A DNA stretch of 64,000 nt from Escherichia coli (lineage in GTDB: Bacteria > Pseudomonadota > Gammaproteobacteria > Enterobacterales > Enterobacteriaceae): assembly GCF_050920415.1 (NCBI RefSeq), contig NZ_CP169309.1. One strand, given 5' to 3'. Shown here one piece after another: positions 10,169 to 64,000 of this stretch. How positions within the stretch are numbered: the stretch's first letter is position 1; each line of letters begins with the position of its first letter. The notes under the pieces are model-generated. The model was given only the letters and a program-made list of their open reading frames with translations, made no database searches and was not told the origin of the DNA. Made by a program: the position numbers and the translations under genes.

Positions 10169-11779
10169 TCAGTTGTCGCCTTTGAATACGGTTCCAGCAG
10201 GAAGCACTGGCGCTTTTCCCGGGGCTTCAACCGGTGTCTGCGGGAGATAATGTTCAACTTGATGAGCTGGAATGTCGGCGTAATCCTGTTTCAGCCAGCG
10301 AATAAATCCGCCGACTTTCACCAGTAAAATGGCGAGGAAGGGAAGGGCAGTGAGGACGACGGTAGTTTTCATTGTTTCCAGCGAAGCACCGGTAAACAAG
10401 ATGGAAAGCGGGATCAGAGTGATCACTACGCACCAGAACAGACGCAGCCCACGGTCAGGATCGTCACCTTCCTGGAGATTACGCGTGCTGGTCGCCGCCA
10501 TGGTGTAAGCCACCGCATCCATATGCGAGGCGAGGAAGATAATCATCACGCCCAGGTATGCGGCGAGGAACAATTTACCGGCTGGCAACGACATCAGAAC
10601 TTGCTGCACAGCTGTTTCGCCGCCCAGTGTTTCCAGCACCTGTGGGACGTTGATTACGCCATTGATAAACTGATGAATGGCATAGCTTTCCATTACACCG
10701 AAGAAGAACCAGCAACCGACAGTGCTGCCGAGGATCAGTCCCCAGATAACTTCTTTAATCTTTCGACCGCGCGAAACGCGGGTGACAAACATTGCTACGC
10801 CAGGGGTGTATGAGATCCACCACAGCCAGTAGAAAACGGTCCAGTTGCGGGTAAATGAACCATCGCCAAGCGGATCGGTGAATAAGCTCATTTGCAGGAA
10901 GTTTTGCGTGGTCAGGCCGATGGCATTGATGATGCTGTTGGTAATAAATTCGGTTGGACCGACAATCAGCACCAGTAATGGCAGCAGGAATGCGCCCCAG
11001 CCAACCATTTTGCTTAGACGTTGCAAACCGTTGTTGATACCAATCCACGAGCTTAGGCAAAAAATGCCGCCGGAAAGCAGGATCACAAATGCCTGTACGG
11101 TAAAGTTATCGGGTAAACCGGTCAGCGCGGAAAGCCCACGGGTAAAGGTTGCTGCGGTGACAACAAGGGAAATGGTCAGTGCGCCGACAGTGGCGATCAG
11201 GAACATCAAATCGACCAGTTTCCCCCACGGGCCTTGCGGGCGAACGCCGGTAATAGCAGCAATAATGCCGGAAAGGCTCAGCCCTTTATTTTTCCGCACA
11301 TGAAAGTGATAAGCCATGATTAATGAGGCCAGCGTATAAGTTGCCCAGGCGCTGATGCCCCAGTGGAAGAAGGAGTAGGGAACGCTAAATTCGAGTGCCT
11401 GTTGTGAACGCGGTGCGATATTTAATCCAGGCGTTTGATAATAATAGGCCCATTCAGCAACCCCCCAATAAAGCGTAGAAGAACCTAAACCTGCACAAAT
11501 AAACATAAACAGCCAGGAGAGCGTGCTGTATTCCGGTTTTCCTTCGCCAAGACGAATATTGCCGTATTTACTGGTGGCTAAATAAATCACCAGTCCCATT
11601 GCCAGCAAAACCAATACCTGTACGGCGGAACCTAACGTACGCGTGACAAAAGTGTATATAGCGTTTGCCGCGTCGGCCGATTGTTGTGGGAAAAGGCTTA
11701 ATGCAGCTGCGATGAAAAGAATGGCCACCAGGCTGATGCTTATCAACGGCACATCTTTTTTCTTAACATTGCTCATCAT
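10169..11779 (-). CDS. yeaV: YeaV, BCCT-family (betaine/carnitine/choline) transporter
   Basis: Membrane protein with CaiT/BetT-like conserved stretches ([21 protein letters not shown]). The start is uncertain. The full ORF is 536 aa, whereas I recall the reference annotation as shorter (about 481 aa). Confidence 0.85.
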
Positions 11780-11982
11780 GAGTCATCTCCTGGGCATAAA
11801 AGCCCGCCTCTGGCTTTTGCCAGTTGTAATTATTTGCAGGGTATGAGTTGTATGTTGTGTTTAACAAATTGATTATTTACATGTTACATAAATTAAACAA
11901 TTAAGAATACGGAAAGCCATAAAACACGAAACGGAAACAATAAAAGGTGAAATGACGCAGGTTATTTACTGCAAAGAACGAA

Positions 11983-44169: not shown

Positions 44170-44300
44170 GATATTGATATGAATGATATCGAAAGAGCAA
44201 AAGTATATACGTGAGGGGCAGCGAGCGCACCTGGATACTCTGTGGATATGAGAAAAGTCCGGCAGAACGGAGGGATTAGTGTCCCGCCGGAGAAAAGTGG

Positions 44301-45023
44301 TTAATCCTGCAACGCATAGGTTACGGTGGTGACTACGCGTACCGTTTTATTAATCGCCGTAGGATCATCTTCATCACTGCCACTGGCGAAGATCTGGAAC
44401 ACGCCTTGTGAGGCATCGCTAATTGACCCCACCTGGCTACCTGAGTCCGTTGCAAATTGTAATGCTGCGTTGCGTGCATCTTTGGTGGCGGCGGCAATCA
44501 TCTCAGCGCGCAGTGCGCCAATACCATTAAAGCGATAGGCGACTTTGCTCTCAGCGATAGCGCCCTCCGTAGCGACTTGCAGTTCGTTTAATTTCGCGAC
44601 GACTTTTTCGACAGCAGCAACATTATGGGTTTTTATCGTCACTGACCCGTCTGCGTTATAGCGTGGCATTGTGGGATCATCTTTCAGATAAAAGGAATCA
44701 GTTCGCTTGCTTGTCCATTGGCCCAGGGTTATCTCTTTCTCGTTAATCCCCTGAGCATTGAGTTCGGCAACAATTTTTTTCTGCGCGTCTTCCAGTTTCG
44801 GGAACAGTTCGCCGGGTATATTACCCTTAAAGTTAATCGCAATTGTTAATTCTGCCGTATCTGCGCGAACTTCTTTTTCAGAAAGCCCACGCACATTTAC
44901 ATAACGGTTATTGGTTTTTAAATGTTTAACACCATCGCCAACAAAATAACCACAGGCGCTAATCCCCAGTCCGAGGACGATAGCGGCAATTAAAGAGGGG
45001 GCCTTATTCACTGATGACTCCAT
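44301..45023 (-). CDS. SIMPL/DUF541-domain (YggE-like) protein with an N-terminal lipoprotein-type signal. Not a gene I recall at this locus in K-12.
   Basis: 240-aa ORF from ATG at 45023 (MESSVNKAPSLIAAIVLGLGISAC..., lipobox-like ISAC). The rest of the sequence has the SIMPL-family (PF04402-like) pattern ending ...TVRVVTTVTYALQD. A downstream hairpin plus T-tract closes the gene. The Shine-Dalgarno sequence is weak. An in-frame upstream GTG would give 270 aa. Confidence 0.6.
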   Translation of the reverse strand: MESSVNKAPSLIAAIVLGLGISACGYFVGDGVKHLKTNNRYVNVRGLSEKEVRADTAELTIAINFKGNIPGELFPKLEDAQKKIVAELNAQGINEKEITLGQWTSKRTDSFYLKDDPTMPRYNADGSVTIKTHNVAAVEKVVAKLNELQVATEGAIAESKVAYRFNGIGALRAEMIAAATKDARNAALQFATDSGSQVGSISDASQGVFQIFASGSDEDDPTAINKTVRVVTTVTYALQD

Positions 45024-45126
45024 ATCAGATGCTAAATGAGCAAGGGAATGTAGTGGAGAGAGGGAGTGAAAGACAGTCCGATTCAGGAGTGTGGCCGACA
45101 GCATATCGGCCACATTTTTGCAGGAT

Positions 45127-50815: not shown

Positions 50816-50837
50816 TGCTCTGATGCAGTCAGTTTTC

Positions 50838-50872
50838 GTAGGCCAGATAAGGCGTTCACGCCGCATCTGGCA
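50838..50872. repeat. REP (repetitive extragenic palindromic) element between convergent topB and gdhA
   Basis: Reverse complement tgccagatgcggcgtgaacgccttatctggcctac matches the Y-type REP consensus (GCCGGATGCGGCGTGAACGCCTTATCCGGCCTAC). Confidence 0.8.
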
Positions 50873-50898
50873 TAAACGCCTGAAACGGCGCTAATGAC

Positions 50899-59098: not shown

Positions 59099-59802
59099 CA
59101 GGCATTCCTCTTCTGGCGTTCAAGCCATATTTTTTTCGCCATAAAAATCACCACGGTCAGGGCAAACAGAATAAACAGTCCGGTGACAAACCAGAAGGTA
59201 CCGCCCGTTAACATACTGCCCGCCCAGGAATAAACAATAGTCGCCGGTAACTGACCAAGCCCGGTGGCGATAAAAAACGAGCGAAAACGTATTGACGTCA
59301 AACCGGCAGCATAGCTGATTGGATCGAAAGGGACAAAAGGCAATAACCGGCATACCAGGATAGTGTGTTTGCCGTAGCGAGTGAAAAAGCCGTCCATACT
59401 GTCAAGCATGGTTTTACCGGTTAATTTTTCCACCACTTCGCGGCCCATTACTCTGGCGATAAAAAAGCATAGCGCCGCGCCCGCCATAGAACTGGTCCAC
59501 GACAGCAAGCCGCCCCAGAACGCGCCAAACAGCGACGCATTGGCAAAGGTGATCAAAAATGCAGGCAGCGGTGCAGCAATGGCCTGTAAGATCATTAAAA
59601 AGAATGAGACCAGTGCAGCCTGCGTGCCGTAAGACGCAATAAAGCGTTCAATGCCTTGTTGATCCACGGCGGCAAAGGCTACAAGGCTGCTGTTAATAAA
59701 CTCATAAACGCCGGGAATCAGCGCCCATGCGAGCAGCGCAACAATTAACAAGATGATAATGACGCCACGCCAGAGCCACATTTTACGGTTTTTATCTCTC
59801 AT
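59098..59802 (-). CDS. ydjZ: YdjZ, DedA/TVP38/TMEM64-family inner membrane protein (234 aa)
   Basis: MRDKNRKMWLWRGVIIILLIVALL... Its stop overlaps the ynjA start (ATGA). Confidence 0.85.
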   Translation of the reverse strand: MRDKNRKMWLWRGVIIILLIVALLAWALIPGVYEFINSSLVAFAAVDQQGIERFIASYGTQAALVSFFLMILQAIAAPLPAFLITFANASLFGAFWGGLLSWTSSMAGAALCFFIARVMGREVVEKLTGKTMLDSMDGFFTRYGKHTILVCRLLPFVPFDPISYAAGLTSIRFRSFFIATGLGQLPATIVYSWAGSMLTGGTFWFVTGLFILFALTVVIFMAKKIWLERQKRNA

Positions 59803-59805
59803 CTT

Positions 59806-60510
59806 TCATCTTTGTTGTTCGGTTAAAGAGGTTTTATCAGAAGTGGTCAGTGCCACTTGTTTGTAACGGGCGTAGCATTTAGCAAGCTGAATAAGAATAA
59901 ACAGTATTAGCCCTGCCAGACAAAGTTTGAAAATAAATGATAATGTTATGCCTTCAGTAACAAGGTCGCTGGCCATAAAAGTATAAATAAAGATCCCCGG
60001 CAGAGTCGTGAATGCCGAAATAAAGGTATATGGCCAAAAGGCAATGGCGGTTAATCCGTAGGCGTAATTTTGAATATTGTAAGGAAATAGCGGAATTAAG
60101 CGGGTAAGAATAAGAAAATCGATACCGTTACGTGCAATCCCTTTCTCAATAGACTGAAAGACGGTGGTATCCCCAACATATTTCAGCACCAGTTCTCGCC
60201 CCATCCAGCGAGCAATCAAAAAGGAAACCGACGAAGCGAGCGTTGCTGCAACTAACGAAAGCAGAGTCCCCAAGAATGGACCAAAAATAATGCCACTGCC
60301 AATGACCAGGACACTACCGGGCAGCAGCAGAAGAGTGGCAATAACAAATAACAGAATATAAAGGCTGTAACCGAAAATACCACTCTGGCGAATAAGTGCC
60401 TGCAAGTGAGGAAGATCGCTAATGAAATTGAATATGCCTGAAGCATAAACAAGATAAATTGCCAGAGCAAAAGTCAGACTACCAACAACGAACTTACACT
60501 CAGCTTTCAT
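59806..60510 (-). CDS. ydjX: YdjX, DedA/TVP38/TMEM64-family inner membrane protein (234 aa)
   Basis: Paralog of ydjZ (GxxxVxxRLIPLFPYNIQNYAYGLT core). Ends 3 bp before the ydjZ start. Confidence 0.85.
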   Translation of the reverse strand: MKAECKFVVGSLTFALAIYLVYASGIFNFISDLPHLQALIRQSGIFGYSLYILLFVIATLLLLPGSVLVIGSGIIFGPFLGTLLSLVAATLASSVSFLIARWMGRELVLKYVGDTTVFQSIEKGIARNGIDFLILTRLIPLFPYNIQNYAYGLTAIAFWPYTFISAFTTLPGIFIYTFMASDLVTEGITLSFIFKLCLAGLILFILIQLAKCYARYKQVALTTSDKTSLTEQQR

Positions 60511-60630
60511 CGTGGAGATTTCCTATATCAAGCCTTGATAATAGAGAAGTGAAAAACGCGATGACGGTATAACAAACCTAAGCTGGTCACAAATCCTTAC
60601 TGCCAGTTTCTTGATTATCCTCAAGAATCG

Positions 60631-60659
60631 GCCTCCTGACCTGGAGGATGTCAGGAGGC
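60631..60659 (-). terminator. Stem-loop downstream of xthA
   Basis: gcctcctgac-ctggaggat-gtcaggaggc, 10-bp arms. Weak U-tract. Confidence 0.45.
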
Positions 60660-60666
60660 TGCGTCA

Positions 60667-61473
60667 TTAGCGGCGGAAGGTCGCCCACACAGGCGCGTGA
60701 TCGGACGGTTTTTCCATGCTGCGGATTTCATAGTCGATGCCGGTTTCTACGCAACAGTCTGCCAGCGGTTGGCTGGCGAGCAGCAGGTCGATACGCAGAC
60801 CACGGTTATCGTCAAAACCTTTTGAGCGGTAATCAAACCATGAGAAACGATCTGCTGTTTCCGGATTCGCATGGCGGAAGGTATCCACCAGCCCCCAACT
60901 TATCAGCCTGTCCATCCATTCACGTTCTTCAGGCAGGAAAGAACATTTACCAGTACGCAGCCAGCGTTTGCGGTTCTCTTCGCCAATGCCGATATCCAGG
61001 TCGGTGGGGCTGATATTCATATCGCCCATAATCAGCACCGGATTTTCACGCTTGAGTTCGGTTTCCAAATAATTTTGCAGATTCTGATAAAACTGCGCCT
61101 TCGCCGGGAATTTTATCGGATGGTCGCGGCTTTCACCCTGCGGGAAGTAACCGTTGATCACGGTGACATTGCCCAGCGGCGAGGGGATTTCCGCCATAAT
61201 AATTCGCCGCTGCGCCTCTTCGCCGTCGTCAGGGAAGCCGCGACGCACGGCAATCGGCGTCTCTTTGGTCAGCAGCGCCACGCCATAATGGCCTTTCTGC
61301 CCGTGATAAAACACGTTGTAGCCGAGCTTCGCCACCTCTTCGAGCGGAAACATATCGTCATGAACTTTTGTCTCCTGCAGGCCAATCACATCCGGTTGGT
61401 GCTTTTCGACGATGGCTTCAAGCTGGTGAGGTCTGGCGCGCAGGCCGTTGATATTAAAAGAGACAAATTTCAT
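60667..61473 (-). CDS. xthA: Exodeoxyribonuclease III XthA (268 aa)
   Basis: [36 protein letters not shown]... Matches the XthA sequence as I recall it. Confidence 0.95.
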
Positions 61474-61829
61474 AGTCGCTGCCATTTATTCAGATAAAGA
61501 GTGCGTGGATGGTAGCAGAATTTCGCTTTGCTTACCGCCTGTTGTTAAGTGATTTGATCGATGGTTGTTAATGATGTCAACGATGGCGCAAAAAATGCCC
61601 GCTTTTGGTGCGCGCTGCGTCAGAATGGCGCAGTAATTTCCAGTAAATTTCGTCAATGATCACAATTCCAGAATTATATTTTACTTCTGCATAACATTGC
61701 GTTTTTTATTCTTTTTATTCACCTGCATCGCAAACGTATTCACTTTATATGCACTTTAAATGCATATGGTTTGGTTATAACTCCTTGATTTCCAGTTAGC
61801 CACCGCGGTTTATGCACTTTTATCACTGG

Positions 61830-61846
61830 CTGGCACGAACCCTGCA
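61830..61846 (+). promoter_or_regulatory. σ54 (-24/-12) promoter of the astCADBE operon
   Basis: CTGGCACGAACCCTGCA fits TGGCAC-N5-TTGCA. It lies about 75 bp upstream of the astC ATG. An upstream AT-rich region has TGCA-containing half-sites consistent with NtrC/ArgR control of ast. Confidence 0.7.
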
Positions 61847-61882
61847 ATCTACATTTACAGCGCAAACATTACTTATTATTAA

Positions 61883-64000
<2,118 letters not shown>

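What the first reader, a model, noticed from the sequence alone, without database searches (positions are those of the whole stretch)
44170..45126. Extra SIMPL/DUF541 (YggE-like) putative lipoprotein gene between ansA and sppA
The ansA–sppA interval is 957 bp here. From memory of MG1655 it is roughly 0.2 kb with no annotated gene (sppA b1766 and ansA b1767 are consecutive). The extra DNA is a single 240-aa ORF (44301..45023, minus strand). It has a lipoprotein-like N-terminus (LGLGISAC) and a SIMPL-domain body ending ...TVRVVTTVTYALQD. That is the family of E. coli YggE, a periplasmic oxidative-stress-associated protein. Codon usage and GC content look native. The gene has its own downstream hairpin plus T-tract. 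On the + strand just upstream of the ORF start at 45023 there is a separate hairpin gtggccgacagcatatcggccac+TTTTT (45091..45118). It is oriented opposite to both neighbours and may be a relic of the insertion junction. The Shine-Dalgarno sequence is weak. This is the only clearly non-K-12 coding content in the window and has no assigned function.
Basis: partly seen in the sequence, partly recalled or inferred. Interest (0 to 1): 0.55.

Follow-up and report, generated by a model that had tools for sequence, protein, structure and literature searches.

The report
SIMPL envelope gene lost in K-12
The extra DNA between ansA and sppA is a real, conserved gene for a membrane-tethered periplasmic SIMPL/DUF541 protein; it is an old Escherichia gene that K-12 and most E. 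coli have deleted, it is already catalogued in public databases, and its function is still unknown.

Summary
The ansA–sppA spacer is 957 bp here and 166 bp in MG1655. It carries one intact minus-strand ORF that matches Pfam SIMPL over the full profile (E 2.7e-18).

Three details need correcting:
- **Start codon.** The conserved start is GTG at 45011, giving 236 aa, with a GGAG Shine-Dalgarno 6 nt upstream. The ATG at 45023 is not conserved.
- **Hairpin at 45091–45113.** It is the sppA terminator stem. K-12 and every Escherichia species have it, so it is not an insertion scar.

The "insertion" reading is reversed. The gene sits at this site in E. fergusonii, E. albertii, E. whittamii, cryptic clades and two unnamed enteric lineages. 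Its dS matches its neighbours and dN/dS is 0.05–0.12. Only 943 of 5426 complete E. coli genomes keep it, including ST131 and O157:H7. K-12 and CFT073 share one ~794-bp deletion allele.

The lipobox is Escherichia-specific; the wider subfamily has an uncleaved N-terminal membrane helix. The exact protein is already in RefSeq (WP_001030438.1). This is an ordinary, known gene of unknown function.

The parts
44301..45011 (-). Coding sequence of the SIMPL/DUF541 protein: 236 aa from the GTG start, stop codon at 44301-44303. It is identical to RefSeq WP_001030438.1.
   Evidence: ORF. RefSeq annotation of the 100%-identical locus. Pfam SIMPL E 2.7e-18. dN/dS 0.05-0.12. The exact sequence is in NCBI and UniProt, seen on >=1000 contigs.
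45012..45023 (-). Start region: GGAG Shine-Dalgarno at 45018-45021, 6 nt before the GTG.
   Evidence: In the alignment of seven Escherichia lineages the ATG reads AAG in four, while GGAG/AAGGAG and the GTG are invariant.
44922..45002 (-). N-terminal hydrophobic helix (residues 4-30). It contains the conserved G-[YFW]-x-[IV]-G-x-G motif (G21-G27) and is the membrane tether.
   Evidence: AlphaFold2 helix 4-30. The motif is nearly invariant in 38 homologues (G16, G21, G25). The C. jejuni full-length chain 10am_A aligns from query residue 9.
44952..44963 (-). Lipobox-like I-S-A-C (residues 17-20, Cys20).
   Evidence: A PROSITE PS51257-type pattern matches in E. coli, E. albertii and P0007 only. 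E. fergusonii has ITVC, and 33 of 38 members have no Cys.
44316..44900 (-). SIMPL domain (residues 38-232): a two-lobed alpha/beta fold. The most conserved blocks are RYVNVRGLSEKEV, LRAEMIAAATKDARNAALQFA, VGSIxxASQG and KTVRVVTTV.
44249..44291 (-). Terminator-like hairpin (stem 44258-44291) plus ACUUUUCUC tail, downstream of the SIMPL stop and just upstream of the ansA promoter region.
   Evidence: Fold -18.6 kcal/mol, z -3.4. The stem is kept by compensatory changes in E1V33 and E. whittamii and is destroyed in the gene-less allele. The consensus terminator scan did not call it.
45091..45113 (-). sppA 3' hairpin (GUGGCCGAUAUGCUGUCGGCCAC on the coding strand). A U-tract follows it in K-12 and E. 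fergusonii. In this allele ACUCCUGAAUC follows instead.
44297..45090 (.). The segment missing from the K-12/CFT073-type allele (~794 bp): the 79-nt leader plus the whole ORF. A 4-bp direct repeat CCAC (coding strand) sits at each edge.
   Evidence: Alignments. BLAST breakpoints 44249/45089 against MG1655 and 44255/45090 against CFT073. The K-12 and CFT073 spacers are both 166 bp with 5 mismatches.

Best explanation
Window 44301..45011 (minus strand) is a functional, vertically inherited chromosomal gene. It encodes a 236-aa envelope protein: an N-terminal hydrophobic helix followed by a SIMPL/DUF541 domain. It belongs to the membrane-anchored subfamily whose solved representative is the Campylobacter jejuni SIMPL-like 'periplasmic protein' (7C50, 10AM). 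It is not YggE.

Shown: the gene occupied the sppA-ansA site before the Escherichia lineages split. It has evolved under purifying selection. It was removed from the allele carried by K-12, CFT073 and about 83% of complete E. coli genomes by one ~794-bp deletion. That deletion joined the sppA terminator stem to a T-rich tract. The gene-less allele is shared across phylogroups.

Inferred (about 0.6): the protein is exported by Sec. It stays tethered to the inner membrane by its uncleaved helix, or in E. coli possibly by lipid on Cys20. The SIMPL domain faces the periplasm.

Inferred (about 0.35): it acts without catalysis, as a homo-oligomeric ring or scaffold. Brucella BP26 forms such an assembly, and the nine identical chains in the C. 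jejuni entry point the same way. In this reading it contributes to envelope robustness under stress and is dispensable in many niches.

For: Real gene: dN/dS is 0.05-0.12 in all pairs. All 60 sampled E. coli copies are full length and annotated as CDS. The GTG start and Shine-Dalgarno are conserved.

Ancestral, not inserted: synteny sppA-SIMPL-ansA holds in E. albertii, E. whittamii and Escherichia spp. MOD1-EC7003 and E1V33, in E. fergusonii, and on two Logan contigs whose SppA is 90% identical to E. coli's. dS is comparable with the flanks, for example 0.30 against 0.21 and 0.29, and 1.72 against 2.54 and 1.63.

Deletion allele: MG1655 and CFT073 have the same 166-bp spacer with 5 mismatches. 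It retains the sppA stem and recognisable DNA from just downstream of the SIMPL stop.

Distribution: 943 of 5426 genomes, always one chromosomal copy.

Membrane helix as the family trait.

Stand-alone gene: distant homologues share no conserved neighbours.
Against: No expression data could be consulted. No sigma-70-like promoter was found in the 79-nt leader. The sppA stem lacks a U-tract here, so transcription may depend on read-through from sppA, which is untested. The functional part rests on remote relatives whose own roles are poorly defined: BP26 is known as an antigen that binds extracellular matrix in vitro (PMC7697752). The oligomer inference rests only on the chain count of one PDB entry whose paper I could not find. 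Topology is not proven, because the flank after the helix carries more positive charge than the N-terminus. The 66 nt after the stop codon are only 65-68% identical between gene-bearing and gene-less alleles, against 83-86% between species. That does not fit a simple recent deletion. The state in Salmonella, Citrobacter and Klebsiella was not examined directly.
Confidence: 0.8

Rival explanations
1. One reading: a recently acquired accessory insertion present only in some E. coli phylogroups, with the 45091 hairpin as a junction relic.
For: The gene is absent from K-12 and from 83% of complete genomes. Its GC is slightly lower than its neighbours'. Its nearest non-Escherichia named relatives are in distant phyla at 47-54% identity. 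That suggests horizontal transfer at some much earlier time.
Against: The gene is at the same site in every other Escherichia species examined and in two unnamed enteric lineages. dS equals that of the flanks. There are no integrase, transposase, tRNA or flanking repeats beyond a 4-bp CCAC. The hairpin is present in K-12 itself.
Confidence: 0.04
2. In E. coli the protein is a true lipoprotein. It would be cleaved by LspA before Cys20, triacylated and, with Gly at +2, sorted by Lol to the outer membrane. It would not be an inner-membrane protein held by an uncleaved helix.
For: Residues 10-20 fit the PROSITE-type lipobox rule, with K3 in the n-region. The Cys is conserved in E. coli, E. albertii, E. 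fergusonii and P0007.
Against: E. fergusonii has Val at -1, which fails the rule. P0009, at the same locus in another enteric lineage, has Gly in place of the Cys. 33 of 38 subfamily members have no Cys. The conserved G-x-x-x-G-x-G motif lies after the putative cleavage site and inside the predicted helix 4-30. The C. jejuni homologue has no Cys there.
Confidence: 0.35
3. A second YggE: a soluble periplasmic oxidative-stress defence protein, functionally redundant with yggE, which would explain why it is dispensable.
For: Both proteins match Pfam SIMPL (YggE is annotated as DUF541). There is a weak hit to the YggE NCBIfam model (E 5e-4).
Against: The score is 19.5 bits against the 249-bit cut-off. 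BLASTP finds no similarity. hhalign gives 36% probability over 94 columns at 15% identity. The N-terminal architecture differs.
Confidence: 0.12
4. A decaying or non-functional ORF that merely persists in some lineages.
For: It has been lost from most E. coli. No promoter was detected. The protein evolves faster than SppA and AnsA: 66-70% against 86-99% identity among the deepest lineages.
Against: dN/dS is 0.05-0.12 over dS up to about 2. All 60 sampled genomes carry intact full-length copies. The start codon, Shine-Dalgarno and terminator stem are conserved, with compensatory changes in the stem.
Confidence: 0.03

Closest known systems
Campylobacter jejuni SIMPL-like protein (cjSLP; PDB 7C50/7C51 crystal of the soluble part; 10AM, full-length 'Periplasmic protein', nine chains)
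   Different: It comes from a different phylum-level lineage. It has no Cys in the helix. Its biological role was not found in the searchable literature, so it offers no functional transfer.
Brucella BP26/Omp28 (PDB 4HVZ)
   Different: Sequence identity is only 16-17%. BP26 has a cleavable signal peptide, not a conserved membrane helix. It is known as an immunodominant antigen that binds collagen and vitronectin in vitro (PMC7697752). The channel-like 16-mer is from my own knowledge of the 4HVZ paper and was not tested here.
E. coli YggE (b2922), NCBIfam NF008299 'oxidative stress defense protein'
   Same: Both match Pfam SIMPL/DUF541, and both are about 240-aa envelope proteins of E. coli.
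   Different: It is not an orthologue or a close paralogue: 19.5 bits against the 249-bit cut-off, BLASTP E 34, hhalign probability 36%. yggE lies at a different locus in K-12, which lacks the sppA-ansA gene.
Mammalian SIMPL / IRAK1BP1 (namesake of the Pfam family)
   Same: It shares the Pfam domain only (named from my own knowledge).
   Different: It is a cytosolic eukaryotic signalling adaptor. No meaningful functional parallel is expected, and it was not tested here.

Membership tests
Pfam SIMPL / DUF541 (PF04402) | HMM score above the gathering threshold over most of the profile | tested here: met
   67.4 bits against 25.2, E 2.7e-18, profile positions 1-205 of 205.
Pfam SIMPL / DUF541 (PF04402) | Two-lobed alpha/beta SIMPL fold as in solved members | tested here: met
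Membrane-anchored SIMPL subfamily (cjSLP type) | N-terminal hydrophobic helix with a G-[YFW]-x-[IV]-G-x-G motif directly preceding the domain, and end-to-end alignment with the full-length C. jejuni protein | tested here: met
   Helix 4-30. G16, G21 and G25 are conserved in >=90% of 38 homologues. 10am_A residues 8-231 align to query residues 9-236.
YggE equivalog (NCBIfam NF008299) | Score at or above the curated cut-off of 249 bits | tested here: not met
   19.5 bits. BLASTP against MG1655 YggE gives E 34. hhalign probability is 36%.
Bacterial lipoprotein | Lipobox [LVI][ASTVI][GAS]C / PROSITE PS51257-type pattern with a basic n-region | tested here: met
   The pattern matches at residues 10-20 (…LGLGISAC), with K3 in the n-region.
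Bacterial lipoprotein | Lipobox conserved among orthologues | tested here: not met
   Only 3 of 38 members pass. E. fergusonii has ITVC, the same-locus orthologue P0009 has ITAG, and most members have no Cys.
Bacterial lipoprotein | Lgt/LspA processing and acylation | not testable with these tools
   This needs SignalP/LipoP, globomycin treatment and palmitate labelling.
Horizontally acquired genomic islet | Absence from sister species at the site, mobility genes or target-site repeats, and divergence out of step with the flanks | tested here: not met
   The gene is syntenic in 5 named or cryptic Escherichia lineages plus 2 unnamed ones. dS is similar to the flanks. The only repeat is a 4-bp CCAC. 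GC is only about 3 points lower.
Intrinsic terminator (hairpin 45091-45113, as the sppA terminator) | GC-rich stem followed by a U-tract on the transcribed strand | tested here: inconclusive
   The stem is strong (-19.7 kcal/mol, z -5.1). In this allele ACUCCUGAAUC follows it. K-12 has AUUAUUUUUU and E. fergusonii has AUUUUUUUG. The consensus scan called no terminator.
Anti-phage defence systems (PADLOC) | Match to any defence-protein model | tested here: not met
   No families at E <= 0.1.
BP26-like ring oligomer | Homo-oligomeric ring or channel assembly | not testable with these tools
   The only hint is indirect: nine identical chains in entry 10am. No multimer prediction was available.

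The most novel reading that the evidence does not exclude
The membrane-anchored SIMPL subfamily forms a periplasmic homo-oligomeric ring on the inner membrane with a specific job in envelope or secretion quality control. That job would be hinted at by the gene's stable position immediately downstream of the signal-peptide peptidase gene sppA across Escherichia. It would also be hinted at by the loss of the sppA terminator U-tract in gene-bearing E. coli, which suggests co-transcription. Under this reading the presence/absence polymorphism (kept in ST131 and O157:H7, lost in K-12 and CFT073) would reflect niche-dependent selection rather than drift, and the oddly diverged gene-less spacer would mark an old, recombining, selectively maintained allele.
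Probability: 0.07. Interest if true: 0.45.

Novelty: already known. Interest (0 to 1): 0.15.

Why it matters
It matters little for discovery. The exact protein is a catalogued RefSeq and UniProt entry (WP_001030438.1, A0A061YFW5), and its family and fold are known.

There are three modest points of value:
- It is a clean example of K-12 being the derived, reduced state. A reader using K-12 as the reference will mistake ancestral genes for insertions.
- It identifies an uncharacterised envelope protein present in the clinically important ST131 and O157:H7 lineages and missing from the laboratory strain. That may explain why nobody has studied it.
- It places the protein in the C. jejuni cjSLP subfamily rather than with YggE, which redirects any functional hypothesis.

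Tried and rejected
- **Literature.** Seven searches found no functional study of this subfamily and no paper for PDB 10AM or 7C50 in the held library (SIMPL domain + E. coli; SIMPL/DUF541; SIMPL-like + C. jejuni; cjSLP and variants; SIMPL + Campylobacter + cryo-EM; YggE; DUF541). Most 'SIMPL' hits were unrelated acronyms. The mention of DUF541 in the Bacteroides LolB preprint is only a table row.
- **Defence system.** PADLOC gave no hit.
- **Structured RNA in the interval.** Rfam gave no hit at E <= 1.
- **Own promoter.** The sigma-70 scan found none in the leader. My reading by eye found only weak candidates and no convincing sigma-E-type site, so I rejected them as evidence.
- **Conserved operon partner.** Four distant homologues have unrelated neighbours.
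- **AlphaFold-database fold search.** The library was not available.
- **Longer 270-aa ORF from the GTG at 45113.** I rejected it because it runs through the sppA hairpin and its N-terminal extension is not conserved.
- **Gapped global alignment of the two spacers.** With cheap gap extension it scattered short K-12 pieces across the ORF and was discarded. I used the MAFFT alignment and the segment-wise alignment instead.
- **Phylogroup assignment.** I did not assign phylogroups to all 943 carriers. Only named examples were checked: ST131 and O157:H7/O145 carry the gene; MG1655, MC1061, CFT073 and O111 11128 do not.
Full report
**1. What is there**

Window 44170..45126 is the 957-bp interval between the ansA start codon and the sppA stop codon. 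Both genes are on the minus strand. The interval contains one long ORF on the same strand, 44301..45023 from the first ATG. The gene order ydjE, pncA, ansA, ORF, sppA, ydjA, selD is the K-12 order read in reverse. In MG1655 sppA ends at 1850693 and ansA starts at 1850860. A local BLAST of the whole window against MG1655 1826000-1900000 leaves window 44249..45089 unmatched. The ORF is the only complete extra gene relative to K-12 in the 64 kb.

**2. Gene model**

RefSeq annotates the 100%-identical locus of strain MFDS1022581 with a 236-aa product, WP_001030438.1, 'SIMPL domain-containing protein'. This corresponds to a GTG start at window 45011.

An alignment of the sppA–ORF leader from seven Escherichia lineages shows the following:
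- The ATG at 45023 reads AAG in Escherichia sp. E1V33, E. whittamii, E. albertii and E. fergusonii.
- The GTG and the (A)AGGAG located 6 nt upstream are invariant.

The protein is therefore 236 aa and has a good Shine-Dalgarno. The 'weak SD' came from choosing the wrong start codon.

**3. Family**

- Pfam SIMPL (PF04402, DUF541) matches at E 2.7e-18, 67.4 bits against a cut-off of 25.2, over the complete profile.
- The NCBIfam equivalog for YggE gives only 19.5 bits against a cut-off of 249.
- BLASTP against MG1655 YggE (fetched) finds nothing (E 34).
- A profile of 38 homologues aligns to YggE with only 36% probability over 94 columns at 15% identity.
- No PADLOC defence model matches, and no Rfam family matches the interval.

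The closest solved relatives are both from Campylobacter jejuni:
- 10am_A, a full-length 231-aa 'Periplasmic protein' with nine identical chains (E 1e-27). It aligns from query residue 9 to the last residue.
- 7c50/7c51, the crystal structure of the same protein's soluble part, described as a 'Simpl-like protein' (E 4e-26).

An AlphaFold2 model built on the 38-sequence alignment has mean pLDDT 90.9. It shows a helix at residues 4-30 followed by a two-lobed alpha/beta domain. Structure searches give:
- Foldseek: 7c50 at E 9e-17 and Brucella BP26 (4hvz) at E 5e-11.

'YggE-like' is therefore true only at Pfam level. The protein belongs to a distinct, membrane-anchored subfamily typified by the C. 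jejuni protein.

**4. N-terminus**

In E. coli the segment ...LGLGISAC fits a PROSITE-type lipobox rule, with K3 in the n-region. Among 38 subfamily members only three pass the rule: E. coli, E. albertii and the unnamed P0007. E. fergusonii has ITVC, with Val at -1. P0009, which sits at the same locus in another enteric lineage, has ITAG. Thirty-three members, and also the C. jejuni protein, have no Cys there at all.

What is conserved is a roughly 21-residue hydrophobic stretch that ends in G-[YFW]-x-[IV]-G-x-G. G16, G21 and G25 are conserved in at least 90% of members. The model predicts this stretch as one continuous helix.

The family trait is therefore an uncleaved membrane helix. Lipidation in E. 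coli is possible (I put it near 0.35), but it would be a lineage-specific addition.

**5. Is it a real gene?**

Nei-Gojobori estimates between the window, O157:H7, strain LCP22S3_I2, two cryptic clades, E. whittamii and E. fergusonii give dN/dS of 0.03-0.15, mostly 0.05-0.12. Pairwise dS ranges up to about 2. All 60 E. coli copies sampled evenly from the 943 hits are full length and annotated as CDS. The terminator stem downstream of the stop is kept by compensatory changes in E1V33 and E. whittamii. The exact protein has been seen on at least 1000 contigs. It carries the names 'MULTISPECIES: SIMPL domain-containing protein [Escherichia]' and 'DUF541 domain-containing protein' (A0A061YFW5).

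**6. Insertion or deletion?**

The gene lies between sppA and ansA in all of the following:
- E. albertii, E. whittamii, and Escherichia spp. MOD1-EC7003 and E1V33.
- E. fergusonii, at 70% aa identity.
- Two Logan contigs, L060 and L063, from unnamed enterobacteria. L060's SppA fragment is 90% identical to E. coli's, compared with 86% for E. coli against E. fergusonii over the same residues.

Its dS tracks its neighbours:

| Comparison with the window | SIMPL dS | ansA dS | sppA dS |
|---|---|---|---|
| MOD1-EC7003 | 0.30 | 0.21 | 0.29 |
| E1V33 | 0.56 | 0.37 | 0.41 |
| E. fergusonii | 1.72 | 2.54 | 1.63 |

There are no mobility genes and no repeats beyond a 4-bp CCAC at each edge. GC is only about 3 points below the flanks. 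Presence is therefore ancestral for Escherichia, and the K-12 state is a deletion.

Within E. coli, 943 of 5426 complete genomes (17%) carry the gene, always as one chromosomal copy at this site. Carriers include O25b:H4-ST131, O157:H7, O145 and Xuzhou21. MG1655, MC1061, O111:H- 11128 and the B2 strain CFT073 lack it.

K-12 and CFT073 share the same 166-bp spacer, with 5 mismatches. All gene-less hits span about 708-710 bp for the 1501-bp query. This points to a single deletion allele. CFT073's sppA is closer to K-12's than to the window's: 28 differences against 47. The allele has therefore probably moved between phylogroups by recombination; this is an inference.

Outside Escherichia and those two lineages, the best named relatives are MAGs of Phycisphaerales (54%) and Alphaproteobacteria (47-49%). 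An ancient horizontal origin for the enteric copy is possible but was not resolved.

**7. The hairpins**

The stem at 45091..45113 is conserved after the sppA stop codon in every Escherichia lineage, including K-12. It folds strongly on the sppA strand (-19.7 kcal/mol, z -5.1). What follows the stem differs between alleles:
- K-12: AUUAUUUUUU.
- E. fergusonii: AUUUUUUUG.
- Gene-bearing E. coli and the cryptic clades: ACUCCUGAAUC.

It is therefore the sppA terminator stem and not an insertion scar.

Two consequences follow:
- In this allele sppA termination may be leaky, and the SIMPL gene may be partly co-transcribed. This is consistent with the absence of any detectable sigma-70 promoter in the 79-nt leader, but it is untested.
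- In the gene-less allele the deletion places the stem next to a T-rich tract and so creates a canonical terminator.

L060 and L063 have canonical terminators after sppA and longer leaders. Operon membership is therefore not a general property of the gene.

**8. An unexplained detail**

The 66 nt after the SIMPL stop codon are 98% identical between the window and O157. They are 83-92% identical between the window and other Escherichia species. They are only 65-68% identical between the window and the gene-less K-12 and CFT073 alleles. The next 64 nt show 92% against 97-98%. The flanking coding sequences differ by only 2.5-3%.

A simple recent deletion followed by drift does not produce this pattern. 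I could not choose among three possibilities:
- a complex event, such as a deletion with patch repair;
- a long separate history confined to roughly 130 bp;
- selection reshaping the new sppA terminator.

**9. Function**

Distant homologues have no conserved neighbours. No catalytic motif emerges, and no paper on this subfamily was found. Its relatives offer only loose hints. BP26 is an envelope antigen that binds extracellular matrix in vitro (PMC7697752). YggE is annotated by NCBIfam as an oxidative stress defense protein. The C. jejuni homologue is deposited as nine identical full-length chains.

My best-supported mechanism is a Sec-exported, membrane-tethered, periplasm-facing, non-enzymatic oligomeric scaffold that contributes to envelope robustness. 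Natural loss shows that it is dispensable in many niches. I give topology and tethering about 0.6 and the oligomeric-scaffold role about 0.35.

**10. Verdict**

The feature is an already catalogued gene of a known family, so interest is low.

Noticed in passing
window 11652-11874 (and ORF 10169..11779, minus strand): A 223-bp segment absent from MG1655 carries the 5' end and upstream region of yeaV. The ORF here is 536 aa, against the 481-aa b1801 in MG1655. The K-12 yeaV therefore looks 5'-truncated by a small deletion.
   Followed up: partly
window 50816-50896; CFT073 locus L059 5566-10373: The gdhA-topB interval has three states. The window has an 81-bp spacer. MG1655 has ynjI (b1762) there. 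CFT073 has a J-domain protein, an Hsp70-family protein and a hypothetical protein.
   Followed up: partly
window 59758-59839 and 59840-63998: K-12 ydjY (b1751) has no counterpart here. Two 234-aa ORFs, the ydjZ and ydjX homologues, are adjacent. The DNA beyond them is only 90.7% identical to MG1655, compared with 94.6-97.5% in the rest of the window. This suggests a divergent or recombined segment.
   Followed up: no
window 44235-44300, compared with the MG1655/CFT073 spacers: The remnant downstream of the deletion is 65-68% identical between gene-bearing and gene-less E. coli alleles, but 83-86% identical between the window and other Escherichia species. This is far more divergence than in the flanking genes. 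It remains unexplained.
   Followed up: partly
window 45080-45113 (minus strand): In gene-bearing E. coli and the cryptic clades the sppA terminator stem has no U-tract after it. K-12 and E. fergusonii do have one. This implies possible sppA read-through into the SIMPL gene.
   Followed up: partly
loci L060 and L063 (Logan SRA assemblies): Two unnamed enterobacterial lineages carry SIMPL orthologues (about 67% aa identity) at the same sppA-ansA site. L060's SppA fragment is about 90% identical to E. coli's. They have canonical sppA terminators and longer leaders. No named genome in the searches matched them.
   Followed up: partly
CFT073 locus L059 against the window and K-12: CFT073 (B2) differs from the window by about 2.5-4.5% across this region. 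In sppA it is closer to K-12 than to the ST131-like window allele. The region therefore does not follow phylogroup boundaries.
   Followed up: no
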